Positions 29,587 through 47,425 of a stretch of 64,000 bases of DNA are shown here, piece by piece. Made by a program: the position numbers and the translations under genes. Source of the DNA: Desulfuromonadales bacterium (lineage in GTDB: Bacteria > Desulfobacterota > Desulfuromonadia > Desulfuromonadales > Syntrophotaleaceae). Position 1 is the first letter of the stretch; every line of letters begins with the position of its first letter. The stretch is from contig JASKKK010000006.1 in the NCBI GenBank assembly GCA_030154185.1, positions 5,056-69,055 of the forward strand. Reading direction: 5' to 3'. The notes under the pieces were generated by a model. It was not told where the DNA came from and searched no databases. It saw only the letters and a list, made by a program, of their open reading frames with translations.

Positions 29587-29591
29587 AACGC

Positions 29592-30788: not shown

Positions 30789-30792
30789 CGAC

Positions 30793-31721: not shown

Positions 31722-31723
31722 GC

Positions 31724-33411: not shown

Positions 33412-33412
33412 G

Positions 33413-33510
33413 GGCGAGGACAAAGACCCGAGCTTCGCGGGACGCGGGACGCGAAACCCTTGTATCGCCTCACCCTTCAGGGTAGGGGCGATCCTTGTGA
33501 TCGCCCTTCG
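33413..33510. repeat. intergenic repeat, full copy B
   Basis: See 30793-30880. Core at 33476-33510. The gggacgcgggacgcgaaaccc part matches 28390-28416. Confidence 0.8.
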
Positions 33511-33594
33511 CTCAACCCGTTTCACTCCTCGGCACGTTTCACGGGATGCCGTTTTAGCATAGAAAAAGCCAATCACCCGCAAGGAGAAAAAAAT

Positions 33595-34353
33595 ATGAAC
33601 GTCTACTTCATCGGCGCAGGGCCCGGCGATCCCGAGCTCCTCACTCTCAAGGCCAAACGCCTGCTGAACCGCTGTCCGATCTGCATCTTCGCCGGCTCCC
33701 TGGTCAACCCGGCGGTGCTCGACCACCTGCCGGCAGATGCCGAACGTTACGATTCGGCCCTCATGAGCCTGGATGAAATCACGGTCCTGTTTCAACTCGC
33801 CCGACAGCGTGACATGGACGTGGTAAGGCTGCACTCCGGCGACCCCTCCATTTACGGCGCCATCCGCGAACAGATGAATGAACTCGACCGGCTCGGCATA
33901 GGCTACGAAGTCGTCCCCGGCGTAAGTTCCTTTCAGGCGGCGGCCGCCACCCTGTGCACGGAACTGACCGCGCCGGAAATCTCGCAGACCATCATCCTGA
34001 CCCGCACCGCCGGACGCACGCCCATGCCTGAGGACCAGGACCTGCTGAAACTGGCCCAAAGCAATGCGACCCTGTGCATTTTCCTGTCGGCGCATAAAAT
34101 CGCCGAGGTGGCATCCACACTGGCCGAGTCCTACGGCAGCCAGTGCCCTGTGGCGGTGGTCTACCATGCTTCCTGGCCCGACCAGCTGGTACTGCGCGGC
34201 ACATTGGCCGATATCGGTGAACAGGCGGAAGCCGCCGGGATCACCAAAACCGCCATGATCGTCGTAGGATGGGCCCTGTCCCGGAACATTCCGGTTTCCA
34301 AACTTTACGACGCTGGTTTTTCTCACGAATTCCGTCAGGCCAAATCGTCATGA
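33595..34353 (+). CDS. cbiF: cobalt-precorrin-4 C11-methyltransferase
   Basis: SD aaggag. MNVYFIGAGPGDPELLT, SGDPSIYGA and VPGVSSFQ. Confidence 0.9.
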   Translation: MNVYFIGAGPGDPELLTLKAKRLLNRCPICIFAGSLVNPAVLDHLPADAERYDSALMSLDEITVLFQLARQRDMDVVRLHSGDPSIYGAIREQMNELDRLGIGYEVVPGVSSFQAAAATLCTELTAPEISQTIILTRTAGRTPMPEDQDLLKLAQSNATLCIFLSAHKIAEVASTLAESYGSQCPVAVVYHASWPDQLVLRGTLADIGEQAEAAGITKTAMIVVGWALSRNIPVSKLYDAGFSHEFRQAKSS

Positions 34354-35180
34354 GCGTCGCTCTCGTTTCCTTCTCGGCAGAAGGGCTGGATACAGCTCGC
34401 AGATTGAGTCCCCACCTGCACGGTGCCGAAATCCATGTGCACAAATGCGTCGGACAGGTGCCGGATGCGAGACTTTTTTCCCGCGTGATGGATCTGACCC
34501 GGGAACTCTTCGACCATTGCAGGGGCATCGTCTATATCGCACCAAGCGGCGTGGCGGTACGCGCCATCGCTCCGCTGATCGAGCACAAGTTCCGTGATCC
34601 GGCGGTGGTCGTCGTCGATGTTCTCGGGCGCTGGGCCGTGAGCCTTTTATGCGGTCACGAAGGAGGCGCGAACGACCTGACCCTGCACATCGCCAATGTG
34701 CTTGAGGCCGAACCGGTCATCACCACGACCTCGGAAGCAGCAAAAAATCTCATCGTCGGGGTCGGCTGTCGCCGCGGCACCCCGGCGGACGACATCATGA
34801 CGGCGGTCAGGGAAAGTCTGGCAACGGCAGGGCATCGCCCCGAGGAGGTGCGACTGCTTGCTTCGGCAGACCTCAAGGCCGACGAAGCCGGCCTGCTGGA
34901 GGCTGCCCATCTTCTTAACATTCCTCTACGGTTTGTTTCCGGCGCCGAGATTCGCGCCTGCGACCGTAATTTCAACGCATCCGCTTTTGTTCAGGACAAG
35001 GTCGCTTTGCCGGCCGTGGCCGAACCTGCCGCCCTGCTGGCGGGAAGGAGGACCCGATTAATACTTCCGAAAACCATCATCAAAAGTGTCACAGTGGCCA
35101 TCTCGCGGGAAAACTTTTCGTGGTCGGTATCGGCCCCGGAAACCGCCTCGACCGAACCCGCCGGGCCGAGCAGGCCATAG
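34350..35180 (+). CDS. cbiG: cobalt-precorrin-5A hydrolase
   Basis: ATGA overlap with cbiF. CbiG blocks IAPLI..K..DPAVVVVD and VGVGCRRG. Confidence 0.8.
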   Translation: MSVALVSFSAEGLDTARRLSPHLHGAEIHVHKCVGQVPDARLFSRVMDLTRELFDHCRGIVYIAPSGVAVRAIAPLIEHKFRDPAVVVVDVLGRWAVSLLCGHEGGANDLTLHIANVLEAEPVITTTSEAAKNLIVGVGCRRGTPADDIMTAVRESLATAGHRPEEVRLLASADLKADEAGLLEAAHLLNIPLRFVSGAEIRACDRNFNASAFVQDKVALPAVAEPAALLAGRRTRLILPKTIIKSVTVAISRENFSWSVSAPETASTEPAGPSRP

Positions 35181-35836
35181 CGAAGAGTCAGGTCGTTGCC
35201 GGATACCACCTGTACCTGGATCACATCGCCGATCTCATATCCGGCAAGGAACGCATCGCTTCGGGAATGATGCAGGAGACCGAGCGCTGTCGCGCGGCGT
35301 TGCAACGGGCGGCGGCAGGAGCCGTGGTCGCTCTGGTGTCTTCGGGGGACCCCGGCGTGTACGGTATGGCAGGGCTGGCGCTGGAAATGGCGGCGGCCGA
35401 AGGTTTCGATGTGCCGATCGACATCATACCGGGCATCTCCGCGGCCAATTCCGCGGCAGCGCGGCTTGGCGCTCCGCTGATGCTCGACTACGCCTGCATC
35501 AGCCTCAGCGACCTGCTGGTATCCTGGGAATCCATCTGCGACCGCCTGGCGGCACTCGCTGCCGCCGATCTGGTGGTGGCTCTGTACAATCCGCGCAGCA
35601 AAAAACGCATCCGGCAACTTGAAGAGGCCGTGGCCATCATGCAGCGCCATCGCAGCGACAACACACCGGTCGGTATCGTTACCGCCATTGGCGAAACGGA
35701 CGAGCAGGTCGTTCTGACCACCCTTGGCCGTCTGCTGGAAGCCGATGTCGGCATGCGCAGCACGGTCATTATCGGCAACAGTACCTCGCTGTGTCTCGAT
35801 GACCGGCTGATCACCCCGAGGGGTTACCGGTTATGA
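35120..35836 (+). CDS. cbiH: cobalt-factor-III / precorrin-3B C17-methyltransferase
   Basis: GTG start gives MVGIGPG. SGDPGVYGMAG and IPGISAA. 61-nt overlap with cbiG. Confidence 0.85.
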   Translation: MVGIGPGNRLDRTRRAEQAIAKSQVVAGYHLYLDHIADLISGKERIASGMMQETERCRAALQRAAAGAVVALVSSGDPGVYGMAGLALEMAAAEGFDVPIDIIPGISAANSAAARLGAPLMLDYACISLSDLLVSWESICDRLAALAAADLVVALYNPRSKKRIRQLEEAVAIMQRHRSDNTPVGIVTAIGETDEQVVLTTLGRLLEADVGMRSTVIIGNSTSLCLDDRLITPRGYRL

Positions 35837-36594
35837 TCCTGCTCCTCGGCGGTACGAGTGAAACGGCGCCGCTGACGCGGGCCCTGCTGGAAGCCGGCCA
35901 CCAGGTACTGGTATCGACCGCCACGGATGCGCCGCTGAAGCTCCCGGAGCATCCCCGGCTGAAACGCCGCCATGGCCGACTCGACCGGCATGCCATGATC
36001 GCATTGATGCTGCGCTGCGAAATAAGGGTGCTGCTCGATGCCACCCATCCTTATGCGGCCCAGGCCCAGGATCAGGCGCGGCAGGCGGCTGCCGAGCTGG
36101 GTCTGCCGTATCTGCGCTGGGAAAGACCCCCTTCCGATTTCGACGGATATGCGGTCACCTGGGCGGAAAACCATCGACACGCGGCGCAGTTGGCCTGCGC
36201 GAACGGGCGGCCGGTACTGCTGACCACCGGTTCCAGGCACCTGGAGTCCTATGTAAGCCGGGCTCGCCTGACCGACGTCCGGTTACGCGCCAGGGTTCTG
36301 CCCCACGACGAGTCCCGCCGTGCTGTGGAACAGGCCGGCCTGGCACCCGAGGAAGTGATCTGGGGGCAGGGGCCTTTTTCCGTCGAGAGTAACCGCGAAC
36401 ACATCCGTCGACACGAAATCGGCGTGCTGGTCACCAAAGACAGCGGCAGGGCCGGGGGCGTGCCGGCCAAACTGAAAGCGGCACAGCTCGAACAGTGTAT
36501 CGTTGTCGTCGTCCGCCGCCCCTCCACCTCCGGTTCGTCACCGCGATTTGACGATCTGACGAAACTGCGCACCTTCCTTGCAGACGAGCTTTAA
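35833..36594 (+). CDS. cbiJ: cobalt-precorrin-6A reductase
   Basis: MILLLGGTSE..DATHPYA..VTKDSG blocks. ATGA overlap with cbiH. Confidence 0.8.
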   Translation: MILLLGGTSETAPLTRALLEAGHQVLVSTATDAPLKLPEHPRLKRRHGRLDRHAMIALMLRCEIRVLLDATHPYAAQAQDQARQAAAELGLPYLRWERPPSDFDGYAVTWAENHRHAAQLACANGRPVLLTTGSRHLESYVSRARLTDVRLRARVLPHDESRRAVEQAGLAPEEVIWGQGPFSVESNREHIRRHEIGVLVTKDSGRAGGVPAKLKAAQLEQCIVVVVRRPSTSGSSPRFDDLTKLRTFLADEL

Positions 36595-37119
36595 ACCCCA
36601 CCCTCGTTTCTGACAAACCAGTATTTTCCCAACAGTTGAGGCATCACCCCCCTGCTTTATCCCCCCAATTGGTGATCGAAATTCCCCTCCGTTGGGGGAT
36701 ACTCCCGACTTCCCATCATGAGGTATTTTAGTTCACGGATGGTAAGACAGTTGTTCTTCGGAGTTCGCTATAAAGGCGTTCTGAAACGTCCGTTCCAGAA
36801 ATTCCGCAGAGCAATCTCCTAGGTAGCCGCCGTATCCTTTTTCTCAGGATCTGGGACGACATGCCATGAGCCGGTTGACAACGAACATGCTTAAAAAGTT
36901 CAAAGCAATAGCCGACGAAAAATTCCGCTGTCGCATTTTTGCATGGCTTTGCCATCTTCCTTTCTTTGCCTTTCCGCACCCGCCTGCTATGACGGCAACT
37001 TCGTCCCGGAGCGCATTTCTCGCCCGGGCCTTTGCATGCCTTATCTCGGAACGGTTGTTCTCTGGATGGACCGGAAGAATATCCGTTCCTTTTTCATCCT
37101 TTTATGGAGGTACATCATT

Positions 37120-37893
37120 ATGAAGAAGTGGAGTGTTTTACTGGTCTCCGTCTTTCTGCTGGCCGCCGGCTTCGTCAGCTCGGCCCAGGCGAAGATCGAA
37201 GTCGAGGGCGATGTCTACGTCGGCCTCTGGGACAAGTACATCTGGCGCGGATTCGACCAGAGCGGCAGCAAGCCCACCATCCAGGGCGGCATCGATTTGA
37301 GCACCAACGGGTGGACCCTGAGCTACTGGGGCAACTGGCAGCTTAGCGAGGACAAGGAAGAAGGCTACGAATCGGGCGAAAGCAACGAAACCGATATCAT
37401 CCTGACCTACAGCCATGACGTCACCGACTGGCTGAACGTTACCGTTGGCGATATCTGGTACGCCATCGACTTCGGCACCAAGGACGGCCTCAACCGCGAC
37501 GGTTCGGTCGACACCAACGAGGTCTTCGGCATTTTCAGCTTCGACACCCTGCTCTCCCCCAGCGTCAAGATCGCATGGGACTGGGACAAAGCTGATGAAG
37601 ACGGCCTCTACTTTACCTTCGACATCGGCCACACCTTCGACCTGAGCCAGTGGGTACCCAAAACCGCTCTCAACCTGGGTGCCGAGCTTTCCTACAACCT
37701 GCACAGTGATTACCTGGTGGGCGACTATGCCGGTTTCCACGATTACGAACTTTATGTCAGCCTCGACTACGCTCTGACCGATCAGCTGACCCTGAGCCCG
37801 ACTTTCTGGTTCACCTCGCCGATCTGCAGCGCGGCCAAAGACACCATCGATACGGAAACCACCGGTGCCATCAACCTGACCTTCGCCTTTTAA
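37120..37893 (+). CDS. outer-membrane beta-barrel protein, TorF-like putative porin (module B)
   Basis: Mature part differs from 10025..10798 at only 4 residues by my count (I/L, H/N, D/G, A/G). The signal peptide is diverged. Confidence 0.7.
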   Translation: MKKWSVLLVSVFLLAAGFVSSAQAKIEVEGDVYVGLWDKYIWRGFDQSGSKPTIQGGIDLSTNGWTLSYWGNWQLSEDKEEGYESGESNETDIILTYSHDVTDWLNVTVGDIWYAIDFGTKDGLNRDGSVDTNEVFGIFSFDTLLSPSVKIAWDWDKADEDGLYFTFDIGHTFDLSQWVPKTALNLGAELSYNLHSDYLVGDYAGFHDYELYVSLDYALTDQLTLSPTFWFTSPICSAAKDTIDTETTGAINLTFAF

Positions 37894-37933
37894 TCGATAG
37901 GCAAGTTCAGGCCTGAGAAACACCAGAACTCTG

Positions 37934-37975
37934 ACGGGGCGAGAGGCTGTTCAAACACCCCTCGCCCCGTTTTCC
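37934..37975 (+). terminator. intrinsic terminator/attenuator after porin B
   Basis: acggggcgag..loop..ctcgccccgt followed by tttt. Confidence 0.6.
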
Positions 37976-38068
37976 GCGAAAAGCCGGATGGCCAGCGGAC
38001 AGGTTAACGAAAATCGCAAATCACTGTTCACCGCTTTCCTGAAACCGACACTTGTCAGGAGGAACGTC

Positions 38069-39187
38069 ATGAAAAAAACCTTGTGGGGAGCCGTTTCCGC
38101 CACTGCCGCGATTGTGGCTGCCGGCGCCCTGTTGCTAACCCCGGCCTGCAGCAAAAAAGCAGAGCTGCAAGAAGAAACCCTGCGCATCACCTGCTGGGGC
38201 GGCTATGCCAAACCCTACGTTGAGGACTTCCAGCAACTGGTCAAGGACAAGTACAACGTCGATGTGAACGTTGAGATATACAACCCCACAGACCAGGACG
38301 AGTTCTTCCAGGCAGTCAAGGAGAATACTGGGGATCTGATCTCTCCACCCATCGAACTGCCCAAGATTCCGCGGTTCTATTCCTATCAGGAAGGCAAAGA
38401 ATACCTGCAGCCGGTGGATGTCAACAACATCCCCAACCTGGCCAAAATGATGCCGGTATTCCGTAATGACCAGACGCCTTTCTACAACGGCGTTCGCTAC
38501 GGCGTGCCCTACAACTGCGGCCCCTACGGGCTGGCCTACAATCTTGACAAGGTCTCGACCGAACCCAACTCCTGGAACGTGCTGTGGTCCCCGATGTATG
38601 CCGGACAGTACACCATCAACAACAACTTCCCCAAGGTGAATGTCTGGATTTCCGCCCTGGCTCTGGGCTACGGCTACAAGGACATCTTCGACATCAACCG
38701 GCTCGATCGCGCCAAAGTTCAGGAAAAGCTCAACGTTCTGGCCAAAAACGCCAAGAGCCTCTGGGACGGCGCAGCTAATCCGGATGAATTCCCGGAACTG
38801 TCTCTGGCGACGACCTGGGGCTTCGCCGCCCAGGCTGCCAACCTTAAAGGCGGCAACTGGCGTCTGGCCACTCCCGCCGAAGGCGGTACGGCCTGGATCG
38901 ACTGCTGGTACCTCGGCGCAGGCGCCAAAGGCATGACCAAAACCCTGGCTGAAGAATGGATCAACTTCATGCTCGAACCCGAGCGCCAGGCCGACGTCGT
39001 GAAATCGCAAGGCGTATCCCCTGTCATGGCCGACACCGGCGACATCCTCAACGACGAGGAAAAAGCCATGTTCCACGTAGGCGACGAAGCCTACTTCAAA
39101 TCCGTTGCCCTGTGGCGGGTTCTCAGCGAAGAGACCGAACAGGCGTTCAACGAAATGTGGGAAACAGCAAAACAGCAGCGGAATTAA
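38069..39187 (+). CDS. PotD/PotF-like solute-binding lipoprotein, orphan (module B)
   Basis: SD aggagg at 38057. Signal ..LLLTPAC. Collinear paralogue of 11015..12124. Confidence 0.8.
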   Translation: MKKTLWGAVSATAAIVAAGALLLTPACSKKAELQEETLRITCWGGYAKPYVEDFQQLVKDKYNVDVNVEIYNPTDQDEFFQAVKENTGDLISPPIELPKIPRFYSYQEGKEYLQPVDVNNIPNLAKMMPVFRNDQTPFYNGVRYGVPYNCGPYGLAYNLDKVSTEPNSWNVLWSPMYAGQYTINNNFPKVNVWISALALGYGYKDIFDINRLDRAKVQEKLNVLAKNAKSLWDGAANPDEFPELSLATTWGFAAQAANLKGGNWRLATPAEGGTAWIDCWYLGAGAKGMTKTLAEEWINFMLEPERQADVVKSQGVSPVMADTGDILNDEEKAMFHVGDEAYFKSVALWRVLSEETEQAFNEMWETAKQQRN

Positions 39188-39300
39188 AACCTGCGGATGT
39201 CCCGTCATCGGGAGCATCCCGTATTTTTCACCCATGCTCCGCCTGCGGAGATAGCCGCAGAGCGGATGGCATCCCCATCTAACGAGACGGAGGTAAACGC

Positions 39301-41568
39301 ATGTTCAAAAAGGGGAAACTCGCAGCTGGCATTACCGGTGCTCTGGTAATGACCTTCCTGGCCAGTCTGGCCGGGGCCGTCACCATCGGGAGCGTCAAGC
39401 CCGGTGAAGACGTCATGCAGTATATCACGCGCACCAAGGGCAAATTCGACCAAACACTCTATCAGAAGGTCATCGGCGCCGCCAACGCTTACAAGGAAGG
39501 CGACGAAGGTCTCGGCGTGGCGGCAGACAACGAACTGTCCCGCGAAAACGCCCGCAAACTGCTGGCCAACACCAAAATCAAGGACATTAACAACAATCCG
39601 CTGTTTGTGGACGGACAGGAAAAACTGATCCGCCGCACCACGGACAAGGCCGCGTACAACAAGGTCAAGAACATGACCATGGGCCAGTTGAAAAACTTCC
39701 TGCTCACCCAGCCCGAGGCCGAAATCAAGGCCATCATGGGCGGTCTGCACAGCGATGTCATCGGCTCCGTGGTCAAACTGATGTCCAACGACGAACTGAT
39801 CCGCGTCGGCAGCAAGATCTTCAACACCCTGCCCGGATCCAACATCGGTGCCAAGGGCTACCTCAGCGCCCGTATTCAGCCCAACTCGCCCACCGACAAT
39901 CCGGAAGACATCCAGATGCAGGTACTGGACGGCTTCTCCTATGCCGTCGGCGACATCGTCATCGGTACCAATCCGGTCGACAGCCAGCTTGAAGCCACCC
40001 TGCGCGTTCAGAACGCCCTGAAGGAAATCGTGACCGCGTTTGAACTCGAAGATACGGTGCCCTGGTGCGTTCTGGCCCACATCGACGGTCAGGCCGCCGC
40101 TGAAAAAGAAGAGCCCGGCTCCACCGCCATCTGGTTCCAGAGCCTCGCCGGCACCGAAAGCGCCAACAAGACCTTCGACCTGACCATCCAGAAGATGATC
40201 GATTACGCCAAAATGCGTAAGGGTCCCTACGGCCTCTATTTCGAAACCGGTCAGGGCGCCGACTACACCAACGGTCACGGCCACGGTTTCGACATGGTCG
40301 TTCACGAATCCCGCAAATACGGTTTCGCCCGTGCTCTGAAACAGGAAATCGCCAAGACCAAGGGCGTTCCCGAAGACGAAGTCTGGCTGCACCTGAACGA
40401 CGTGGCCGGTTTCATCGGTCCCGAGGTATTCAAAACCCGCGAGCAGCTGGTACGCTGCTGCCTCGAAGACATCGTCATGGGTAAACTGCACGGCCTGGTG
40501 CTGGGCCTCGACATCTGCTCCACCCTGCACATGCCCGTCACCCTCGACGACCTCGCATGGTGCCAGGACCAGATCGCTCCGGCCAACCCGGCCTACCTGA
40601 TGGCCCTGCCCACCCGTAACGACCCGATGCTCAGCTACCTGACCACCGGTTTCCAGGACCATGTCCGCCTGCGTGAGAAGTTCGACTTCAAAGTCAACGA
40701 CGCCATGTGGGACTTCTTCAAGAAAATTGAAGTCATCGACGCCAACGGCCAACCGACCGAACATTTCGGCGACCCGGCATGGGTTTACTTCAAGTTCCGT
40801 CAGGCCAAAGGCGACACCCGCTCCTTCGACGTTATCTATGCCGAAGGCAAAAAAGCCATCAAGAACGTTCAGAACCGTGGTGTCGATATCGCTGTCGGCT
40901 ACGGCGAGAACATCTGGGATCTGGAACCGGTCACCAACAAGCGCATCCACGATCTGTACGACGATGCCAAAATCAGCCTGTGGGCCGAATTCACCCCGGA
41001 ATTCATCAACTCCATCCCCAACGCCGTAAGCATCAAGAGCCAGGCCCACGATCGTGAAAACTACATCTCGGCTCCGGCCACCGGTGAAAAGCTGTCCGCT
41101 TCCGCCGTGGCCACTCTGGACAAACTGGCCGCCTCCTGGGGCAATAAAGTCCCCGATGTGCAGATTGTGATCTCCGACGGCCTGAATGCCAAGGCGATCA
41201 TGGACGACGGTCACCTGATGCCTTACCTGAACGAACTGAAAAAACAGTGCAAAAAAGCAGGCCTGACCCTGTCCGACAAGAACATCGTCGTGACCGGCGG
41301 CCGCGTTCGCGCCGGCTACAATGCAGGGGAAGTACTGTACGGCAAAGCCGGCAGCGCTCCCAAAGCCGTGGTTCACATCATCGGCGAACGCCCGGGCAGC
41401 GGCCATCATGCCTTCTCTGCCTACCTGGTTAAAGTCAAGCCGAGCACCTGGGCCAAAGCCGGCTCGGTCGACCATGACCAGTCCAAGGTTCTGTCCGGCA
41501 TTTCCGACACTGGCCTGGTTCCCGCCGAAGCGGCCCGCCAGACGGTTAAGCTGCTGATGGAAATGTAA
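39301..41568 (+). CDS. fused EutB-EutC ammonia-lyase-like enzyme with N-terminal signal peptide/anchor (module B)
   Basis: SD ggaggt. MFKKGKLAAGITGALVMTFLASLAGAVTI. Same EutB and EutC blocks as the module A copy. Confidence 0.85.
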   Translation: MFKKGKLAAGITGALVMTFLASLAGAVTIGSVKPGEDVMQYITRTKGKFDQTLYQKVIGAANAYKEGDEGLGVAADNELSRENARKLLANTKIKDINNNPLFVDGQEKLIRRTTDKAAYNKVKNMTMGQLKNFLLTQPEAEIKAIMGGLHSDVIGSVVKLMSNDELIRVGSKIFNTLPGSNIGAKGYLSARIQPNSPTDNPEDIQMQVLDGFSYAVGDIVIGTNPVDSQLEATLRVQNALKEIVTAFELEDTVPWCVLAHIDGQAAAEKEEPGSTAIWFQSLAGTESANKTFDLTIQKMIDYAKMRKGPYGLYFETGQGADYTNGHGHGFDMVVHESRKYGFARALKQEIAKTKGVPEDEVWLHLNDVAGFIGPEVFKTREQLVRCCLEDIVMGKLHGLVLGLDICSTLHMPVTLDDLAWCQDQIAPANPAYLMALPTRNDPMLSYLTTGFQDHVRLREKFDFKVNDAMWDFFKKIEVIDANGQPTEHFGDPAWVYFKFRQAKGDTRSFDVIYAEGKKAIKNVQNRGVDIAVGYGENIWDLEPVTNKRIHDLYDDAKISLWAEFTPEFINSIPNAVSIKSQAHDRENYISAPATGEKLSASAVATLDKLAASWGNKVPDVQIVISDGLNAKAIMDDGHLMPYLNELKKQCKKAGLTLSDKNIVVTGGRVRAGYNAGEVLYGKAGSAPKAVVHIIGERPGSGHHAFSAYLVKVKPSTWAKAGSVDHDQSKVLSGISDTGLVPAEAARQTVKLLMEM

Positions 41569-41587
41569 AACCTCCTTCCCTGTGATA

Positions 41588-41622
41588 GACCCGGGGGCCT
41601 TTCGGCCCCGGGTCACCTTTTT
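41588..41622 (+). terminator. GC hairpin plus T-tract after EutBC B (attenuator/terminator)
   Basis: gacccgggggcc-tttc-ggccccgggtc followed by acctttttcc. Confidence 0.5.
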
Positions 41623-41719
41623 CCCCGCCTTGCCAGTTCTCCGGCCCCCTGCCGTTGGTCGGATTCCTGGACACTTCGAACAGTTAACAGCCCGGGCCGC
41701 TTTTAGCGGCCCGGACTTT

Positions 41720-42565
41720 ATGCGAAACAGACCGGGATCCCCTATGCCTGAGCCAAGCCTGAAAACCGTCGTCGTGAATCGAGATCCCTCACCGCGCCCT
41801 CTCTGGCGGGATGTGGTTCACAAAACCACCCTCTGGTTTCACGCCATGGGGCTGAGCCCGTATTATCGCTATGGCGAGATCGGAAACCTGTTGTACACTT
41901 TTGGAAAGAGCATTCTTGAAGGGGCGGTGCTCTATACCATGTTTTCGATGGCCCAGTCCGAATTCAAGGTTGCTGCGATCCTCGGCGTGCTGACCAAGTA
42001 TTTTTACCCGGGCATCACCTTTATCAGCAACGTCAAGGTTTCTTCTTTCGTCGATTACCTGGAAAGGTACACAGATACCAGAACCCAGGTTCGTCGTTTG
42101 ATACGCGCCATGGCCCTGGTAGGAGGAGGACAGGCTTTGGGCGCTATTTTGTTGGTGCTGTGCTATCCTCCCTTTTTTACCAGTCTGTTCGGCACGAGTG
42201 CAGCCGGACGCTACGTGTTGATCGCTCTGTACCTGTTGCACCATATCTGCGACGGATCGGCCCAGGTGGCGGAAGGGCGCATATGGTTCAAACTGATTGA
42301 AATCAAACTGCGTAACGGACGACTGCAGCGGATATCCGAAAATTTCTGGGGCATACACGCCATGAGCCAGAACATTCAGTTGTTCGCCGGGCTGATACTG
42401 CTCTGGGCGGCGACGCTGGTCACCGGCCTGTTTCAGGATCATCTCGGCCATACCGTCATGTGGGGCATCGTATCATGCGGCACACTGCTGACCGCTTTTT
42501 CCAAGTTCAGCCTGCCGCTGGCCTGGAAAATGTCACTGCACCGTCAGGAGCACGAGGGAGAATGA
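41720..42565 (+). CDS. polytopic membrane protein, unrecognised family (module B)
   Basis: Paralogue of 14666..15508 (shared YRFGE.GNL.YT.GKSILEGAVLYTMFSMAQ, DGSAQVAEGRIWFKLIEIKLR). The start could be 41720 or 41744. Confidence 0.6.
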   Translation: MRNRPGSPMPEPSLKTVVVNRDPSPRPLWRDVVHKTTLWFHAMGLSPYYRYGEIGNLLYTFGKSILEGAVLYTMFSMAQSEFKVAAILGVLTKYFYPGITFISNVKVSSFVDYLERYTDTRTQVRRLIRAMALVGGGQALGAILLVLCYPPFFTSLFGTSAAGRYVLIALYLLHHICDGSAQVAEGRIWFKLIEIKLRNGRLQRISENFWGIHAMSQNIQLFAGLILLWAATLVTGLFQDHLGHTVMWGIVSCGTLLTAFSKFSLPLAWKMSLHRQEHEGE

Positions 42566-43338
42566 CAGAAACACCGATACTCCAGATTGAGAAACTCGAT
42601 TTCGGCATCGGCGGCCATGCCATCCTCAAGGATATCAATTGCCGGTTTGCCGCCGGAGCCATTCACGGTTTGATCGGACCTAACGGGTCGGGCAAGAGCA
42701 CTCTGCTGCGTAATATATGCCGCATCTGGGAACCGCAAAACGGCCGGGTGATGATCGAAGGCAGGGATGCCGGCCGTCTGCCGCGGAAATCTCTCAGCCA
42801 GATCGTGACCCTGGTGCAGCAGGATACGCGTCTCGATTTTTCCATTCTGGTCTCGGATTACGTCGCCATGGGACGCCATCCGCATCTGAAGCGCCTGCAA
42901 TGGCTGCGCAGACGCGACATGGATATTATCGATCAGGCTCTGGCCGTGACCGGAACCGAGATTTTTCGCAACAGGCTCATCAACGAGTTATCCGGAGGAG
43001 AAGCGCAGTTGGTCAGTCTGGCAAGAGCCCTGGCCACCGAGGCACCGATCATTTTGCTCGATGAACCGACCAGCGCTCTGGACATCCTGCACAAGCTCGA
43101 AATCATGGATCTGCTCTGCGATCTTCGAACCGCCGGCAAGACTATCATCATAAGCATCCACGATCTCGACCTTGCAAGACGTTACTGCGACACCGTGACT
43201 TTGCTGCAACAAGGGCGCGTCCATTACCACGGCATGGCCGAGGAAGGCTTTGCCGAACAACGCATCAAGGAGGTTTTCCATGTCGGCGTGGAAGAAATCG
43301 CATCCGAACATGGCGTCTCGCTGTTGTTCTACCGTTAA
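42562..43338 (+). CDS. ABC transporter ATPase, FecE/BtuD (iron-siderophore/cobalamin) type
   Basis: Walker A GPNGSGKST, signature LSGGE, Walker B ILLDEP. ATGA overlap with the upstream membrane protein gene. Confidence 0.85.
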   Translation: MTETPILQIEKLDFGIGGHAILKDINCRFAAGAIHGLIGPNGSGKSTLLRNICRIWEPQNGRVMIEGRDAGRLPRKSLSQIVTLVQQDTRLDFSILVSDYVAMGRHPHLKRLQWLRRRDMDIIDQALAVTGTEIFRNRLINELSGGEAQLVSLARALATEAPIILLDEPTSALDILHKLEIMDLLCDLRTAGKTIIISIHDLDLARRYCDTVTLLQQGRVHYHGMAEEGFAEQRIKEVFHVGVEEIASEHGVSLLFYR

Positions 43339-44383
43339 ACAAATTCTCGCAGGCTTCATATGGGCCGGACTGCTGACAATACTTCTCGGCGGAACCGCCA
43401 TGGCGGCGGAAAAGGCTCGCGGAGCCCGAAAATTCCCCCTGGAGATGGATGCCCTGATGGGAGCATTGAGCGATACCCATCGGCCGGCAGCGGTTTCCGT
43501 GCAGGGTTTCCCCCGTACCGTCAGCTACCGATTCGTTCGTTATGATTTCGCTTCGGACCGCATGTCTGAAGAAACCCGTTCGGTGACCCTGGCGCATCAA
43601 CCGCAGCGTATCATCCCTCACTCCATCGGGTTGACGGAAATTCTCTGGGCCATCGTGCCTCATGAACGCCTGATCGCCGTTCACAAAAGCTGTAAAGACC
43701 GGCAGTTTTCCTTTCTCGCGCCGCTGCTGCCGAAAGACCTGCCCACCTATGGCACCGACGATGCCGAAATCGTCATCGGCTACCGTCCCGACCTGGTCTT
43801 GACGTCTTTCTATTCCAACGAAAATTTTCTGCATCAGTTGCAGACGGCCCATGTACCCCTGGCGCAATTCGGATTCTTCGATGATCTCGAGTCGATCAAG
43901 GAACAGATCCTTCTGGCCGGACGCCTGACCGGCGAGGAAGCATCGGCACAACGCCTGGTCAGCGTCATGAACGAAAAGCTGCGCGACATTCAGACCGCGG
44001 TGCGACAGCGACGCGAAAAGATGAGCAAACCGCCGTCCGTTCTGTATTACGACAACATGGCTTATGTAGCAGGGGCCGGTACCACTTTCGACAGCATGTG
44101 CCGGGCTCTTGGGGTCGTCAATATCGCCGCCGCCAAGGGAATCCGCAATTTCAAGCAGATCGACTACGAAACCCTGTTGCAGTGGAACCCGGACGTGATC
44201 ATCGTGCCGGAGGAAAGCACATTCGATCGACAGCTTTACAATCAGGAAATCCTGGCGACGGCCCGCGCGGTCAGGCAGAAAAACATTCGCAAGATGCCGA
44301 CCGTCTATCTTCTGAGTTCATCGCAATATCTGATTGCCAGCATCAACTACCTGGCGGGACTGCTTTATGAATCGTCGTTCTGA
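43310..44383 (+). CDS. periplasmic binding protein, BtuF/FhuD (cluster A/type 8) class
   Basis: Signal-like ..AGLLTILLGGTAMA. PBP blocks (RIIPHSIGLTEIL, YRPDLVL, WNPDVIIV). Start uncertain (43280 or 43310). Confidence 0.7.
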   Translation: MASRCCSTVKQILAGFIWAGLLTILLGGTAMAAEKARGARKFPLEMDALMGALSDTHRPAAVSVQGFPRTVSYRFVRYDFASDRMSEETRSVTLAHQPQRIIPHSIGLTEILWAIVPHERLIAVHKSCKDRQFSFLAPLLPKDLPTYGTDDAEIVIGYRPDLVLTSFYSNENFLHQLQTAHVPLAQFGFFDDLESIKEQILLAGRLTGEEASAQRLVSVMNEKLRDIQTAVRQRREKMSKPPSVLYYDNMAYVAGAGTTFDSMCRALGVVNIAAAKGIRNFKQIDYETLLQWNPDVIIVPEESTFDRQLYNQEILATARAVRQKNIRKMPTVYLLSSSQYLIASINYLAGLLYESSF

Positions 44384-45422
44384 TCGTCGCCACTATGTCA
44401 TTACCGGTATCGTTGCCAGTTCGGCGGCCGTGGTACTGTTGCTGGGCGGTATTTTTCTGTCGATCCGCATCGGACCGTGGGAAATCGGCCTGCAGGATAT
44501 CGGACGGATCCTGGCAGCCAAGATTCTGCACATGAACATGTCCAGCGATCCGGCCCTGGAAGCCATCGTCTGGCTGGGAAGGGTGCCGCGCACCCTGACG
44601 GGAGTACTGGTCGGTTTCGCACTGGGCGCCGCCGGCACCATCATGCAAGGCATATTCAAAAACCCCATGGCCAGCCCGGGAGTCATTGGCACCAGTTCCG
44701 GTGCGGCTCTTGGTGCGGTCACCGCCATCTACATCGGCATGGCGGCCACCAGCATCTACGCGGTGCCGTCTTTCGCCATTCTTTTTGCATTTCTGTCGAT
44801 GCTGATCGTGCTGGGCATCGCCACAAGCGGCGGACTGACCTCTCGCTACACTCTGCTGCTGGCCGGCATCGCTTTCAATGCCATATTCAGCGCCCTGACC
44901 TCTCTGGTCATCGTACTGTCGACGGACCAGTTCGAAATGGCCCGGCAGATTGTCGGCTGGTTGATGGGCGACCTGACCAATCGCAGCTGGCAGCATGTCC
45001 ACATCGTCCTCATCATCACCCTGGTCGGCACCTTGTGGTCGTTGCTGTTCGCTCGCGATCTCAACATCATCATGCTGAACGAAGAAATAGCCGCCAACCT
45101 CGGTGTCAACGTGACCTTGTCCCGCAACATGCTGCTGTTTTTGGCAGCGCTGCTGACCGGGGGCGCCATCGCCGTGTCGGGCGCCATCGGTTTCGTCGGC
45201 CTCATCGCGCCGCATATCATGCGCAGCTTCATCGGTTCGGATAATCGCCTGCTGATTCCCGCCGCCGGGGTGCTGGGTGGCGCACTGGTCGTCTATTCCG
45301 ACTGCGTGGTCAGGGTCTGGGGTGGCGGCGGTCTGCGCATCGGCGTATTGACTGCCCTGCTCGGCGGTCCGTTCTTTCTCTATCTGATCATCCGCGACCG
45401 TCGCAAATTCGTCTTTTTCTGA
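44367..45422 (+). CDS. FecCD/BtuC-family ABC permease
   Basis: About 9-10 TM helices. Blocks PRTLTGVLVGFALGAAGTIMQG and GAIGFVGLIAPHI. Confidence 0.85.
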   Translation: MNRRSDRRHYVITGIVASSAAVVLLLGGIFLSIRIGPWEIGLQDIGRILAAKILHMNMSSDPALEAIVWLGRVPRTLTGVLVGFALGAAGTIMQGIFKNPMASPGVIGTSSGAALGAVTAIYIGMAATSIYAVPSFAILFAFLSMLIVLGIATSGGLTSRYTLLLAGIAFNAIFSALTSLVIVLSTDQFEMARQIVGWLMGDLTNRSWQHVHIVLIITLVGTLWSLLFARDLNIIMLNEEIAANLGVNVTLSRNMLLFLAALLTGGAIAVSGAIGFVGLIAPHIMRSFIGSDNRLLIPAAGVLGGALVVYSDCVVRVWGGGGLRIGVLTALLGGPFFLYLIIRDRRKFVFF

Positions 45423-45481: not shown

Positions 45482-46534
45482 ATGAGCTATAACGCCAACG
45501 ACGATTCTTCGCCTGTCGAAACATCTTCCGCGGAAACCTTCCGCAGCAAGATTCAAAAAGTCGAGGAAGAAATCGGCAAAGTCATCATCGGACAGGATCG
45601 CATGATCGAAGCCATCATCTGCACCCTGCTGGCGCAAGGCCACGTCCTGCTTGAGGGCGTACCGGGCCTCGCAAAAAGCCTGACGGTCGGCACCTTCGCC
45701 CGAACGATCGGGGGCGAATACAAACGCATCCAGTTCACGCCGGACAAGCTGCCCAGCGACATTACCGGTACCACTGTCTTCAACCAGGCCACAGGCACCT
45801 TCACTTTTCACCAGGGACCGGTGTTCTGCAACATATTGCTGGCCGATGAAATCAACCGCGCCGCACCGAAAGTCCAGTCGGCGCTGCTCGAAGCGATGCA
45901 GGAAAAACGGGTCAGTATCGACCGCGATCAATACCAGTTGCCCGATTTGTTCATGGTACTGGCGACCATGAACCCGGTGGAACAACTCGGCACCTATCCC
46001 CTGTCGGAGGCCCAGCTCGACCGCTTCATCGCCAAGGTCAACCTCACCTATCCTCCCAAGGAATTCGAAGAGGAATTGCTCCGGAAAAAAAGCACCAACT
46101 TCGAAGAAATTCGAAATGCCGTGCCCTGCCTGCTGCAACCGGATGAAGTCGTCGCCATGCAGCATCATGTGGCCGATCACATAACCGTTTCCCCGACAGT
46201 CGTCGCCTATATACTCGATATCTGCCGGCGAACGCGGCCTGATGCTGCCGAAGCGCCCGCAAGCATCCGCAATTACGTCTCTGTGGGCGTTTCGCCACGA
46301 GCCGGCGAACACCTCATCGCCTATTGCAAAGGCTTTGCTTTCCTGCGAGGCCGCGATTACGTAGCCTTCGAGGATGTCGATGCCTGCGTCCCTCAGGTGT
46401 TGGGCCATCGCATGATACTCAGTGACGCGGCATGCCTGGAAGGCATCCGCACGGAGATGCTGCTGCAGGATATCATCAGCACGGTTGTTCCCCGTGCCGG
46501 AAACCAAAATTCGCGGAGCCTGTCCGACTCATGA
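45482..46534 (+). CDS. MoxR-family AAA+ ATPase
   Basis: GHVLLEGVPGLAKS Walker A, LLADEINRAAPKVQSALLEAMQE. Confidence 0.9.
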   Translation: MSYNANDDSSPVETSSAETFRSKIQKVEEEIGKVIIGQDRMIEAIICTLLAQGHVLLEGVPGLAKSLTVGTFARTIGGEYKRIQFTPDKLPSDITGTTVFNQATGTFTFHQGPVFCNILLADEINRAAPKVQSALLEAMQEKRVSIDRDQYQLPDLFMVLATMNPVEQLGTYPLSEAQLDRFIAKVNLTYPPKEFEEELLRKKSTNFEEIRNAVPCLLQPDEVVAMQHHVADHITVSPTVVAYILDICRRTRPDAAEAPASIRNYVSVGVSPRAGEHLIAYCKGFAFLRGRDYVAFEDVDACVPQVLGHRMILSDAACLEGIRTEMLLQDIISTVVPRAGNQNSRSLSDS

Positions 46535-47394: not shown

Positions 47395-47425
47395 GCCGCC
47401 CATATCAAGACCAAGGAAAGTTTCG

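What the first reader, a model, noticed from the sequence alone, without database searches (positions are those of the whole stretch)
37120..42565. Second copy of the module on the other side of the cob operon, with mosaic divergence (porin nearly identical, the rest diverged)
Genes at 37120-42565 repeat the order porin, binding protein, EutBC fusion, membrane protein. The mature porins differ at 4 residues by my count, and their DNA is near-identical from about 10100-10798 versus 37195-37893. The binding proteins, lyases and membrane proteins are much more diverged (roughly 70-80 % identical by eye, not computed). The upstream regions and signal peptides differ as well. This pattern suggests an old duplication with recent gene conversion of the porin gene only, or selection for two lyase/SBP specificities sharing one pore type. 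The two copies bracket the 21-kb B12 biosynthesis operon in direct orientation. That arrangement could allow recombinational loss or amplification of the cob cluster.
Basis: seen in the sequence. Interest (0 to 1): 0.7.

Follow-up and report, generated by a model that had tools for sequence, protein, structure and literature searches.

The report
Twin ethanolamine-lyase modules sharing one porin
Two old copies of a four-gene ethanolamine-lyase module flank the vitamin B12 synthesis operon, only the mature part of their porin gene is repeatedly copied between them, and the lyase unexpectedly carries an export signal.

Summary
Module A (10025-15508) and module B (37120-42565) have the same gene order: TorF-type porin, PotD-like binding protein, fused EutB-EutC lyase, orphan membrane protein. 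They lie in direct orientation around a riboswitch-controlled cob operon.

Porin nucleotides 107-774 are 96.3% identical (dS 0.17, 4 amino-acid differences). The other coding DNA is 62-74% identical (dS 0.75 to saturated).

In relatives, the binding protein, lyase and membrane protein sort into ancient A and B orthogroups. The mature porin instead clusters by genome in at least three bootstrap-supported lineages. Its signal peptide still clusters by locus. In Syntrophotalea acetylenica the two porins are identical from nucleotide 64 to just past the stop codon.

The two-module layout was already published for S. carbinolica in 2012, where the mature porin pair is only 76% identical. The porin-restricted concerted evolution therefore appears new.

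Outgroup genomes have one module and no cob operon at this site. S. acetylenica has a single cob gene between its modules.

By-product: every full-length fused EutBC examined carries an export signal, Sec-type in Desulfobacterota and twin-arginine in rhizobia. This predicts a periplasmic B12-dependent lyase.

The parts
10025..10798 (+). Porin A: TorF/Gcw_chp family putative outer-membrane channel, 257 aa, signal peptide residues 1-24
   Evidence: PF09694 scores 37.5 bits (cut-off 24). TIGR02001 scores 47.1 against a 47.15 cut-off. The AF2 model is a 12-stranded barrel with pLDDT 90.5. Best Foldseek matches are PcoB, NanC and the KdgM-type VhGalP.
10131..10798 (+). Homogenised (gene-conversion) tract, A copy. 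The core is 96.3% identical to 37226-37893. An older shoulder of about 84% identity runs from about 10088.
   Evidence: 25 differences in 668 nt, dS 0.167, dN 0.006. Perfect-identity runs are 98, 74, 71 and 62 nt.
11015..12124 (+). SBP A: PotD/PotF-like periplasmic solute-binding protein, probable lipoprotein, with no cognate Pot-type permease or ATPase nearby
   Evidence: PF13343 E=4e-49, with weak PotD/PotF/YdcS matches. A Cys conserved after the hydrophobic N-terminus is seen. No Pot-type ABC genes occur in the window.
12233..14494 (+). EutBC A: fused large and small subunits of ethanolamine ammonia-lyase, 753 aa, with a 26-residue Sec-type signal-like N-terminus (..SLAGA|VAIRDVKPGEDVF)
   Evidence: EutB E=2e-146 and EutC E=3e-35. 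The catalytic residues equivalent to E. coli R160, Q162, N193, E287 and D362 are present. The signal is conserved in all orthologues.
14666..15508 (+). TM A: orphan helical membrane protein, 280 aa
   Evidence: No Pfam or NCBIfam hit. About 120 homologues are all unnamed. The AF2 model has pLDDT 92.7. No significant PDB match was found: best E=0.14, to MFS-type transporters.
15520..15538 (+). Terminator-like hairpin ATCCCCCCATTTGGGGGAT followed by a T-run. It closes module A.
   Evidence: It is conserved in S. acetylenica.
15608..15792 (+). Cobalamin riboswitch heading the cob operon
   Evidence: RF00174, 115.9 bits.
15917..36594 (+). cob/cbi operon. Genes recognised: cysG-like, cobC, cobU/T, cobS, cobD-cobQ, cbiB, cobO, cbiA, cbiC, a radical-SAM/SPASM gene, cbiK, a Gate-domain membrane protein, cbiL, cbiD, cbiE/T, cbiF, cbiG, cbiH, cbiJ.
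   Evidence: Pfam scans and gene calls on L001 and L020. GC is 0.60-0.65, against 0.55-0.58 in the flanks.
36659..36700 (+). Conserved hairpin ATCCCCCCAATTGG..GGGGGAT, about 420 nt upstream of porin B
   Evidence: It is present at the same place in L012, L014, L016, L021, L029 and L030.
37120..37893 (+). Porin B: paralogue of porin A with a B-type signal peptide
   Evidence: PF09694 scores 37.8 bits and TIGR02001 scores 47.9. The signal peptide groups with B-locus porins of other species, with weak support for that pairing (62%).
37226..37893 (+). Homogenised (gene-conversion) tract, B copy
38069..39187 (+). SBP B: 75% amino-acid identity to SBP A and 87-91% to B-locus orthologues
39301..41568 (+). 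EutBC B: 755 aa, 69% identical to EutBC A, with its own signal-like N-terminus (..SLAGA|VTIGSVKPGEDV)
   Evidence: There are 55 fixed A/B differences, including H314F next to the catalytic Glu.
41720..42565 (+). TM B: orphan membrane protein (alternative start 41744). Its stop codon overlaps the btuD start as ATGA.
42562..45422 (+). BtuD/BtuF/BtuC-like ABC transporter (ABC_tran, Peripla_BP_2, FecCD), translationally coupled to module B
   Evidence: It follows the module directly in single-module genomes and in distant relatives.
45482..52239 (+). MoxR AAA+ ATPase, DUF58 and several VWA proteins. This set is conserved downstream of the module.

Best explanation
The window, from an uncultured Syntrophotalea-like member of the Desulfuromonadales, carries two ancient paralogous copies of a four-gene amino-alcohol (ethanolamine) lyase module. 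The duplication is older than the split of several Syntrophotalea species.

Since the duplication, the binding protein, the fused EutBC lyase and the membrane protein of each copy have evolved independently, probably because they are functionally specialised. The porin behaves differently. The segment encoding its mature part, from about codon 22-36 to the stop codon, is repeatedly overwritten from one copy to the other by homologous recombination (non-reciprocal gene conversion).

The tract ends where homology ends. On the 5' side this is the diverged signal-peptide and upstream DNA. On the 3' side it is the diverged intergenic DNA. Each event restores the homology needed for the next one, so the boundaries reproduce themselves. 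Conversion in the other three genes is presumably removed by selection. In the porin it is neutral or useful, and both modules keep the same channel even though that channel changes quickly between species.

What is shown: the duplication age, concerted evolution, the tract borders and recurrence. What is inferred: the recombination mechanism (RecA-type), the selective filter, and the substrates.
For: 1. Identity step at the porin: 96.3% against 62-74% elsewhere, P=1e-61.

2. Synonymous divergence drops in the tract. Porin dS is 0.167 and dN 0.006. The other pairs have dS from 0.75 to saturated and dN 0.18-0.27. No other recent tract exists: the lowest pS elsewhere is 0.32, and that trough appears in all three genomes analysed.

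3. Trees. The mature porin clusters by genome: window A+B 100%, UBA6093 A+B 98%, UBA6812/NHSR12 A+B 100%. The first 36 porin codons cluster by locus (A-types 94%). SBP, EutBC and TM cluster by locus (A clades 100%, or 85% for EutBC; B clades 88-100%).

4. Between species the porin has the highest dN, 0.26-0.28 against 0.05-0.14. Constraint therefore cannot explain the within-genome identity.

5. A graded series of mature-porin pair identities: S. carbinolica 76%; UBA6812, NHSR12 and UBA6093 88%; the window species 94% and 98.3% in two strains; a sister lineage 97.4%; S. acetylenica 100%.

6. In S. acetylenica the 26 differences all lie in nucleotides 8-63. There are none from nucleotide 64 to about 11 nt past the stop codon.

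7. B-locus porin alleles differ between strains of the window species. Some carry A-locus residues at positions 123 and 187.
Against: The direction of conversion and the number of events cannot be resolved. The B-locus differences between strains fit either short conversion patches or ordinary mutation after a single event.

The mature porin of the window lineage is only 61-68% identical to that of congeners, whereas its A-locus signal peptide is 20-23 of 24 identical. Import of a foreign allele into one copy before conversion is therefore possible.

The pairing of the sister-lineage proteins (P0122 and P0259) to a single genome was not verified.

The selective-filter argument is an inference. 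No substrate data exist for either module.
Confidence: 0.88

Rival explanations
1. The porin pair is near-identical only because the porin is under much stronger purifying selection or codon constraint than its neighbours. No recombination is involved.
For: dN of the pair is very low, 0.006. Outer-membrane barrels do have constrained strands.
Against: Synonymous sites are also homogenised: dS is 0.167 against 0.75 or more. Between species the porin is the fastest-evolving gene of the module, with dN 0.26-0.28. Paralogues cluster by genome. The S. acetylenica copies are identical at every nucleotide over about 690 nt.
Confidence: 0.02
2. Both porin loci were independently replaced by the same foreign porin allele through horizontal transfer and homologous recombination, rather than one copy converting the other.
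For: The mature porin of the window lineage is 61-68% identical to congeners. Its A-locus signal peptide is 20-23 of 24 identical to theirs, and EutBC A is 81-91% identical to its A-locus orthologues. One allele, P0249, is a mosaic between two lineages. Its tree position next to an outgroup has 92% support.
Against: No donor closer than 65% exists among 5.8 billion proteins, apart from the lineage's own two clusters. The same A=B pattern recurs in at least four other lineages with different porin sequences, which would need paired imports each time. One import followed by conversion is simpler and falls under the main explanation.
Confidence: 0.07
3. The module was duplicated recently, and three of its four genes then diverged very fast.
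For: None beyond the near-identity of the porin.
Against: The A and B forms of SBP, EutBC and TM each have orthologues at 77-91% identity in other species. The A/B split predates those species. dS between A and B is saturated or close to it.
Confidence: 0.01
4. Functional rival, as proposed in the 2012 genome paper. The lyase is cytoplasmic. The binding protein and the membrane protein form an uptake system for ethanolamine or choline. The hydrophobic N-terminus of EutBC is only a membrane tether.
For: Aklujkar 2012 (PMC3543383) proposed uptake roles. AdoCbl enzymes need ATP-dependent cofactor care, which is absent from the periplasm. The membrane protein weakly resembles half of an MFS transporter (TM-score 0.45).
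Against: The N-terminus has the full signal-peptide layout: a basic n-region, a variable hydrophobic core, small residues at -3 and -1, then a conserved mature start. This holds in all 118 full-length members among the top 120 hits. Rhizobial homologues carry a canonical (S/T)RR(D/E)LL twin-arginine motif at the same place. The charge bias predicts N-in, C-out. No eutA, eutH/eat or shell genes occur in the window. Choline cleavage is now attributed to the glycyl-radical enzyme CutC (background knowledge).
Confidence: 0.4

Closest known systems
eutBC1/eutBC2 clusters of Syntrophotalea (Pelobacter) carbinolica DSM 2380: Pcar_0493-0490 and Pcar_0469-0466 (Aklujkar et al. 2012, PMC3543383)
   Same: The four genes, the gene order and the direct orientation are the same. 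The cob operon lies between the copies. A btu-like ABC transporter, VWA genes, AOR and BtuB lie downstream. The two EutBC copies are about 70% identical. EutBC A of the window is 91% identical to the S. carbinolica protein P0002.
   Different: In DSM 2380 the mature porins are only 76% identical, so there is no mosaic there and the paper reports none. The paper does not mention an export signal on EutBC. The window comes from a different species: its porin is 65% identical to Pcar_0493.
Canonical eut operons of Salmonella and E. coli: EutB plus EutC, EutA reactivase, EutT, EutH and microcompartment shell proteins
   Same: The EutB and EutC domains are present, and all five substrate-binding or catalytic residues are conserved. 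Linkage to B12 supply is shared.
   Different: The subunits are fused into one polypeptide with an N-terminal export signal. There are no shell proteins, EutA, EutT or EutH in the window. The partners are instead a porin, an orphan SBP and an orphan membrane protein.
Concerted evolution of duplicated bacterial genes by gene conversion, for example tufA/tufB in enterobacteria and outer-membrane protein families in Neisseria and Helicobacter (background knowledge, not tested here)
   Same: Paralogues within a genome are more alike than orthologues. Synonymous sites are homogenised. Tract borders are sharp.
   Different: Only one sub-gene segment (the mature porin) of a four-gene repeat is homogenised, with the same borders in several species. 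The other three genes stay cleanly diverged.
Corrinoid reductive dehalogenases (RdhA), the known exported B12 enzymes (background knowledge)
   Same: They are cobamide enzymes located outside the cytoplasm. The rhizobial EutBC fusions also carry twin-arginine signals.
   Different: RdhA enzymes are Tat substrates loaded with cofactor in the cytoplasm. The Desulfobacterota EutBC fusions have Sec-type signals without a twin-arginine motif, which implies cofactor loading after export. The chemistry also differs: EAL is an AdoCbl radical lyase.
Small 12-stranded outer-membrane channels: KdgM/NanC family and PcoB
   Same: The predicted 12-strand barrel has TM-scores of 0.52-0.55 (0.64-0.67 by target length) to NanC, VhGalP and PcoB. 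The protein ends in a C-terminal Phe.
   Different: Sequence identity is only 11-14%. The family is TorF/Gcw_chp (PF09694), which has no characterised substrate.

Membership tests
Ethanolamine ammonia-lyase (EutB PF06751 + EutC PF05985) | Full-length EutB and EutC domains above the curated cut-offs | tested here: met
   EutB scores 488-495 bits and EutC 116-122 bits for both copies. NCBIfam EutB scores 651 bits against a 554 cut-off. EutC scores 90-95 bits, below its 230-bit equivalog cut-off.
Ethanolamine ammonia-lyase (EutB PF06751 + EutC PF05985) | Substrate-binding and catalytic residues (E. coli EutB R160, Q162, N193, E287, D362) | tested here: met
   They align to R191, Q193, N224, E315 and D403 of EutBC A. 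The same motifs are present in EutBC B. The residue list itself comes from background knowledge of the E. coli structures (3ABO series).
Ethanolamine ammonia-lyase (EutB PF06751 + EutC PF05985) | Two separate subunits located in the cytoplasm or a microcompartment | tested here: not met
   It is a single polypeptide of 753-755 aa with a signal-peptide-like N-terminal extension of about 26 residues. The actual location cannot be tested here.
Ethanolamine ammonia-lyase (EutB PF06751 + EutC PF05985) | AdoCbl-dependent deamination of ethanolamine | not testable with these tools
   Only context is available: cob operon, cobO adenosyltransferase, AOR and btu genes. S. carbinolica grows on ethanolamine.
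Canonical eut operon / Eut microcompartment | Shell proteins (EutK/L/M/N/S), EutA reactivase, EutH or Eat permease | tested here: not met
   None was found in Pfam scans of 47 window ORFs. The genome paper also reports no eutA.
TorF / Gcw_chp putative porin (PF09694, TIGR02001) | Family HMM above cut-off | tested here: met
   PF09694 scores 37.5 and 37.8 bits against a cut-off of 24. TIGR02001 scores 47.1 (A, just under the 47.15 cut-off) and 47.9 (B).
TorF / Gcw_chp putative porin (PF09694, TIGR02001) | Signal peptide, beta-barrel and C-terminal aromatic residue | tested here: met
   The cleavage motif is AQA|K. The AF2 model is a 12-strand barrel with pLDDT 90.5. The protein ends in ..LTFAF.
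TorF / Gcw_chp putative porin (PF09694, TIGR02001) | Channel activity and substrate | not testable with these tools
   No characterised member is known to me. The third paralogue in S. carbinolica lies next to an ammonium transporter.
PotD/PotF-type ABC substrate-binding protein | SBP_bac_6 / SBP_bac_8 fold | tested here: met
   PF13343 E=4e-49 and 4e-47.
PotD/PotF-type ABC substrate-binding protein | Equivalog-level match and an adjacent cognate permease and ATPase | tested here: not met
   PotD, PotF and YdcS models score 24-60 bits against cut-offs of 582-725. The only ABC system nearby is BtuCDF-type with its own binding protein.
Concerted evolution by gene conversion | Paralogues cluster by genome while their flanks cluster by locus | tested here: met
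   NJ trees with 500 bootstraps.
Concerted evolution by gene conversion | Reduced synonymous divergence confined to a tract with sharp borders | tested here: met
   dS is 0.167 inside the tract and 0.75 or more outside. The borders lie at gene nucleotides about 64-107 and at the stop codon.
Concerted evolution by gene conversion | Non-reciprocal transfer shown directly (donor and recipient identified) | tested here: inconclusive
   The strain comparison (window against L001/L021) shows B-locus alleles that carry A-locus states. Mutation after one event fits equally well.
Sec or Tat exported protein | Tripartite signal peptide with a small-x-small cleavage motif (Sec), or an S/T-R-R-x-hydrophobic-hydrophobic motif (Tat) | tested here: met
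   The Sec-type layout is present in all 118 full-length fused EutBCs among the top 120 hits. TRRDLL, SRRELL and SRRDLL motifs occur in three rhizobial homologues. This rests on manual motif reading, because no SignalP or TatP tool was available.

The most novel reading that the evidence does not exclude
The fused EutBC proteins form a family of exported, periplasmic coenzyme-B12-dependent ethanolamine ammonia-lyases.

In this reading each module is a microcompartment-free way to deaminate ethanolamine, or a related amino alcohol, outside the cytoplasm. The substrate enters through the porin and is bound by the orphan binding protein.

The always-adjacent orphan membrane protein, the BtuFCD-like transporter and the MoxR/VWA set would shuttle or exchange the cobalamin cofactor across the inner membrane, in place of EutA.

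The porin, as the shared entry gate of both modules, would be kept identical by gene conversion while it diversifies between species.
Probability: 0.45. Interest if true: 0.85.

Novelty: new variant of a known kind. Interest (0 to 1): 0.6.

Why it matters
Three things would matter if these readings hold.

1. Selective gene conversion. This is an unusually clean natural case. Inside one four-gene repeat, a single sub-gene segment is homogenised again and again with the same borders, in at least three bootstrap-supported lineages plus S. acetylenica and a probable sister lineage. The neighbouring genes keep an ancient divergence. That makes it a good system for asking how selection and homology limits together shape conversion tracts.

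2. Stability of the cob operon. The repeats flank the cob operon of a syntrophic fermenter. What lies between the modules varies among relatives: 21 kb of cob genes, one cob gene, or nothing. This bears on how B12 production is gained and lost in this group.

3. Location of the lyase. The export signals on the fused EutBC family predict a periplasmic AdoCbl enzyme. This is not described in the searchable literature. It would change how ethanolamine use, acetaldehyde containment and cobalamin trafficking are understood in Desulfobacterota and rhizobia.

Tried and rejected
The porin protein query gave 62 pattern hits but no tblastn-confirmed locus. An exact 36-nt porin pattern gave 0 hits. A population survey for hybrid (deletion or amplification) junctions was therefore impossible.
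- Biopython bootstrap trees timed out. They were replaced by my own NJ with 500 bootstraps.
- No promoter could be assigned. The sigma-54 consensus scan gave 30 hits against 32 expected, none upstream of either module. The sigma-70 scan gave nothing above shuffled expectation.
- Rfam found no riboswitch or other RNA family in front of either module. It found only the cob, btuB-like and Moco elements.
- The membrane protein stays unassigned. Pfam and NCBIfam gave no hit. Foldseek against the PDB gave no significant match, best E=0.14.
- I looked for older conversion tracts in SBP, EutBC and TM. The high-identity stretch in EutBC (13329-13680) has pS 0.32 and recurs in all three genomes analysed, so it reflects constraint and not conversion.
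- I tested whether single-module genomes are porin-mediated deletion products. Their genes are not A-type at the 5' end and B-type at the 3' end. They sit between the A and B clades, so this was rejected in favour of an ancestral state, though without a root.
- I tested whether a plasmid carries the module together with cob genes (a Campbell-integration idea). The plasmid search found only solitary rhizobial EutBC fusions.
- Literature searches for periplasmic, exported, fused or Tat-dependent EAL, and for the Pcar locus tags, returned nothing beyond Aklujkar 2012.

Full report
**1. What is in the window**

ORF listing, translation and family scans show two co-directional copies of a four-gene module.

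| Gene | Module A | Module B |
|---|---|---|
| TorF/Gcw_chp putative porin | 10025-10798 | 37120-37893 |
| PotD-like binding protein (SBP) | 11015-12124 | 38069-39187 |
| EutB-EutC fusion | 12233-14494 | 39301-41568 |
| Membrane protein (TM), no family hit | 14666-15508 | 41720-42565 |

- Between the modules lie a cobalamin riboswitch (15608-15792) and a complete anaerobic-type cob/cbi operon ending at 36594.
- Module A ends with a terminator-like hairpin (15520-15538).
- The stop codon of module B overlaps the start of a BtuD-like ATPase as ATGA.
- Downstream of module B come BtuF-like and BtuC-like genes, MoxR, DUF58 and VWA proteins. Next is a tungsten/Moco riboswitch with an aldehyde:ferredoxin oxidoreductase. 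Last is a second cobalamin riboswitch with a TonB-dependent receptor and TonB.
- Upstream of module A lie a B12-binding radical-SAM gene, a second radical-SAM gene and a histidine kinase with a sigma-54 activator.

**2. Check of the observation**

- A global alignment of the two modules shows 94-99% identity per 100 nt across the porin from about 10108 to 10790. Identity is 40-89% everywhere else.
- The porin genes are both 774 nt and align without gaps. Positions 1-106 hold 39 differences and positions 107-774 hold 25 (96.3% identity). Similarity stops at the stop codon.
- Nucleotide identity is 74.2% for SBP, 74.3% for EutBC and 61.7% for TM. Intergenic and upstream DNA is 40-47% identical.
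- The probability of 643 or more matches in 668 at the background rate is 1e-61.
- Nei-Gojobori estimates:

| Pair | dS | dN |
|---|---|---|
| Mature porin | 0.167 | 0.006 |
| SBP | 1.19 | 0.18 |
| EutBC | 0.75 | 0.23 |
| TM | saturated | 0.27 |

- No second recent tract exists. The lowest synonymous difference elsewhere is pS 0.32, in a trough of EutBC that all three genomes analysed share.

**3. Provenance and prior knowledge**

EutBC A occurs with an identical sequence on many JGI metagenome contigs. Its closest named relative is EutBC1 of Syntrophotalea (Pelobacter) carbinolica DSM 2380, at 91% identity.

The 2012 genome paper for that organism describes the same layout (PMC3543383). It reports:
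- duplicate fused eutBC genes 70% identical;
- duplicate binding proteins;
- duplicate multi-transmembrane proteins;
- duplicate unknown proteins, with a third paralogue next to an ammonium transporter;
- cob genes between the copies, and a corrinoid ABC transporter, VWA proteins, AOR and a cobalamin outer-membrane channel downstream.

The arrangement itself is therefore already known. The paper mentions neither unequal divergence among the four gene pairs nor a signal peptide on EutBC. In DSM 2380 the mature porins Pcar_0493 and Pcar_0469 are only 76% identical, so the mosaic is absent there.

**4. Age of the duplication and concerted evolution of the porin**

A scan of one genome per species with the membrane-protein pair returned 13 loci.

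- Three genomes carry both modules: UBA6812, UBA6093 and NHSR_12. In NHSR_12 both modules lie on one 1.76-Mb contig, 30.7 kb apart.
- SBP, EutBC and TM fall into A and B orthogroups. Window A is 77-90% identical to A-locus genes, window B is 80-91% identical to B-locus genes, and A against B is 62-77%.
- NJ trees with 500 bootstraps give the following:

| Segment | Clusters by | Support |
|---|---|---|
| SBP, EutBC, TM | locus | A clades 100% (85% for EutBC); B clades 88-100% |
| Mature porin | genome | window A+B 100%; UBA6093 A+B 98%; UBA6812+NHSR12 A+B 100% |
| First 36 porin codons | locus | A-types 94% |

- Between species the porin has the highest dN of the four genes, 0.26-0.28 against 0.05-0.14. 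Within genomes it has the lowest.
- In the other two-module genomes porin dS is 0.53-0.57, against 0.85-1.7 for the neighbouring genes.

This is the signature of concerted evolution by gene conversion confined to the mature-porin segment. It has occurred independently several times.

**5. Recurrence and sharp borders**

Cluster look-ups yielded more porin pairs. Mature-porin pair identity forms a series:

| Genome or lineage | Mature-porin pair identity |
|---|---|
| S. carbinolica DSM 2380 | 76% |
| UBA6812, NHSR12, UBA6093 | 88% |
| Window species, 249-kb-contig strain | 94% |
| Window | 98.3% |
| Sister lineage (pairing to one genome not verified) | 97.4% |
| S. acetylenica | 100% |

Signal peptides match at only 11-15 of 24 positions in every pair.

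DNA was recovered for S. acetylenica from the finished genome CP015518.1 and from two metagenome contigs. The two porin genes differ at 26 positions, all within nucleotides 8-63. They are identical from nucleotide 64 to about 11 nt past the stop codon. The rest of the modules is 45-86% identical per 100 nt.

The borders match those in the window. There, positions 64-106 are 84% identical and positions 107-774 are 96% identical.

Within the window species, porin A is identical in two strains. Porin B differs at 30 nucleotides between them, and at each such site one allele equals the A state. The strains are 99.2% identical at locus A and 97.6% at locus B. This fits either ongoing short-patch conversion or mutation after a single event, and I cannot separate the two.

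One allele, P0249, is a mosaic between two lineages. Recombination between strains therefore also acts on this gene.

**6. Why only the porin (inference)**

The tract ends where homology collapses: the signal-peptide and upstream DNA on one side, and the intergenic DNA on the other. Every event renews long perfect-identity runs (98, 74, 71 and 62 nt). These runs are the substrate for the next event, so the borders perpetuate themselves.

The other three genes contain stretches of up to 89% identity but show no conversion in any lineage. This suggests that conversion there is removed by selection because A and B have specialised. There are 12 fixed A/B differences in SBP, 55 in EutBC and 20 in TM. 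One of the EutBC differences, H314F, lies next to the catalytic Glu.

The porin model is a 12-stranded barrel (pLDDT 90.5) resembling NanC, KdgM-type porins and PcoB. Divergence between species is strongest in the predicted external loops. These are 50% identical with 13 gapped positions, against 66% for the strands. That pattern fits a fast-changing surface protein whose new variants are copied to both loci.

**7. One-copy and other states in relatives**

- Four genomes carry a single module: Desulfuromonas sp. CSMB_57, CSMAG_2380, 42485_Bin_1 and MFD01721.bin. Where the sequence is available, it lies between the upstream flank of module A (kinase, radical-SAM genes) and the downstream flank of module B (btuDFC, DUF58, VWA). 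No cob operon is present at this site.
- In unrooted trees these genomes attach between the A and B clades. Their genes are not A-like at the 5' end and B-like at the 3' end. They therefore look ancestral and not like recent deletions, although rooting is uncertain.
- S. acetylenica has both modules, but only one cob gene (the cobD-cobQ fusion) lies between them.
- The content between the repeats is thus evolutionarily labile. No state can be attributed to porin-porin recombination.
- The cob operon has a higher GC content than its surroundings, 0.60-0.65 against 0.55-0.58. This fits a separate origin.

**8. What the module does**

Both EutBC copies have full EutB and EutC domains and all five substrate-binding or catalytic residues of the E. 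coli enzyme. They are most likely active AdoCbl-dependent amino-alcohol ammonia-lyases. This fits growth of S. carbinolica on ethanolamine and the linked AOR for acetaldehyde.

Each copy unexpectedly starts with a signal-peptide-like extension of about 26 residues: a basic n-region, a hydrophobic core and AGA|V.
- This layout is present in all 13 orthologues and in all 118 full-length members among the top 120 database hits. The core sequence varies, while the -3/-1 pattern and the mature start are conserved.
- Rhizobial homologues at 60-62% identity carry a canonical twin-arginine motif (TRRDLL, SRRELL, SRRDLL) at the same position.

Two kinds of export signal on one enzyme family argue that the fused EutBC clade works in the periplasm.

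This fits the companions: an outer-membrane channel, and a periplasmic binding protein with no permease. It also fits the absence of EutA, EutH and shell genes.

In distant Desulfobacterota the conserved core is EutBC, the TM protein (about 50% identical), BtuD, BtuF, BtuC, MoxR and DUF58. That core may handle cofactor exchange for a Sec-exported apo-enzyme. The solitary Tat-type rhizobial genes lack these partners.

All of this is inference from sequence. No paper in the searchable library describes an exported EAL.

The membrane protein has a confident all-helical model (pLDDT 92.7) with no significant structural or family match.

**9. Verdict**

- The two-module layout is already published for a congener.
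- The porin-restricted, recurrent gene conversion with reproducible borders appears new.
- The predicted export of the lyase is the most novel reading that the evidence allows.

Noticed in passing
window 12233-12310 and 39301-39378; L025:6899-7010; L026 and L027 near 5900-6000: Every full-length fused EutBC examined has an N-terminal export signal. It is Sec-type in Desulfobacterota (all 118 full-length members among the top 120 hits). It is twin-arginine type ((S/T)RR(D/E)LL) in Sinorhizobium, Pararhizobium and Ensifer megaplasmid copies. This predicts a periplasmic B12-dependent lyase.
   Followed up: partly
L028:10533-12738; L029 and L030:1731-6001: In Syntrophotalea acetylenica only one cob gene (the cobD-cobQ fusion, 866 aa) lies between the two modules, where the window has a 21-kb operon. 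The two porin copies, identical over about 690 nt, are about 5.3 kb apart there.
   Followed up: partly
L013, L015, L017, L019 (whole loci): These genomes have a single module. Where the sequence is available, it carries the module-A upstream flank and the module-B downstream flank (btuDFC, DUF58, VWA), with no cob operon. This is probably the ancestral state.
   Followed up: partly
window 15520-15538 and 36659-36700: A G/C-rich palindrome occurs only twice in the window: ATCCCCCCATTTGGGGGAT, and an expanded form ATCCCCCCAATTGG..GGGGGAT. One copy lies just after module A and the other about 420 nt before module B, so they bracket the cob insert. Both positions are conserved in relatives, including S. 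acetylenica. They could be terminators or footprints of the insertion.
   Followed up: partly
window 30823-30880 and 33453-33510: A 58-nt direct repeat (83% identity) lies in two intergenic gaps inside the cob operon, before cbiL and before cbiF. Its function is unknown.
   Followed up: no
window 16001-36000 versus the flanks: The cob operon has a GC content of 0.60-0.65. The modules and flanks have 0.55-0.58. This suggests a separate, possibly horizontal, origin for the operon.
   Followed up: no
window 26950-28365 and 29592-30788: A radical-SAM/SPASM gene and a 398-aa membrane protein with a faint Gate (nucleoside-recognition) domain are embedded in the cob operon next to cbiK. They are candidates for lower-ligand or cobalt/corrinoid handling.
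   Followed up: no
window 52474-54360 and 54760-58071: A Moco/tungsten riboswitch precedes an aldehyde:ferredoxin oxidoreductase. A second cobalamin riboswitch precedes a TonB-dependent receptor and TonB. The whole 45-kb stretch reads as one ethanolamine, acetaldehyde and B12 supra-operon.
   Followed up: partly
L001 versus window 2232-24463; L021 versus window 35467-45564: Two strains of the window species are 99.2% identical at locus A but 97.6% at locus B. The exact EutBC A protein occurs in 47 index blocks, whereas the exact EutBC B protein occurs on a single contig. The B side is therefore more polymorphic.
   Followed up: partly
protein P0249 (porin cluster member): This porin allele has a sister-lineage signal peptide and C-terminal half, but a window-type N-terminal half. 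It is a mosaic produced by recombination between lineages.
   Followed up: no
L011:1-85 and L018:1-402: The MAG contigs end just upstream of SBP B, at the position of the porin gene. Short-read assemblies would break there if the porin is a near-identical repeat in those genomes too.
   Followed up: no
window 14666-15508 and 41720-42565; L023:10269-11069; L024:10395-11171: The orphan membrane protein always lies directly after the fused EutBC and before the BtuD-like ATPase, even in distant relatives at 50% identity. Its model is confident (pLDDT 92.7) but has no PDB or Pfam relative.
   Followed up: partly
window 7910-9619: A B12-binding radical-SAM protein with DUF4080 lies immediately upstream of module A. 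It is conserved there in two-module genomes and in three of the four single-module genomes. It may belong to the system.
   Followed up: no
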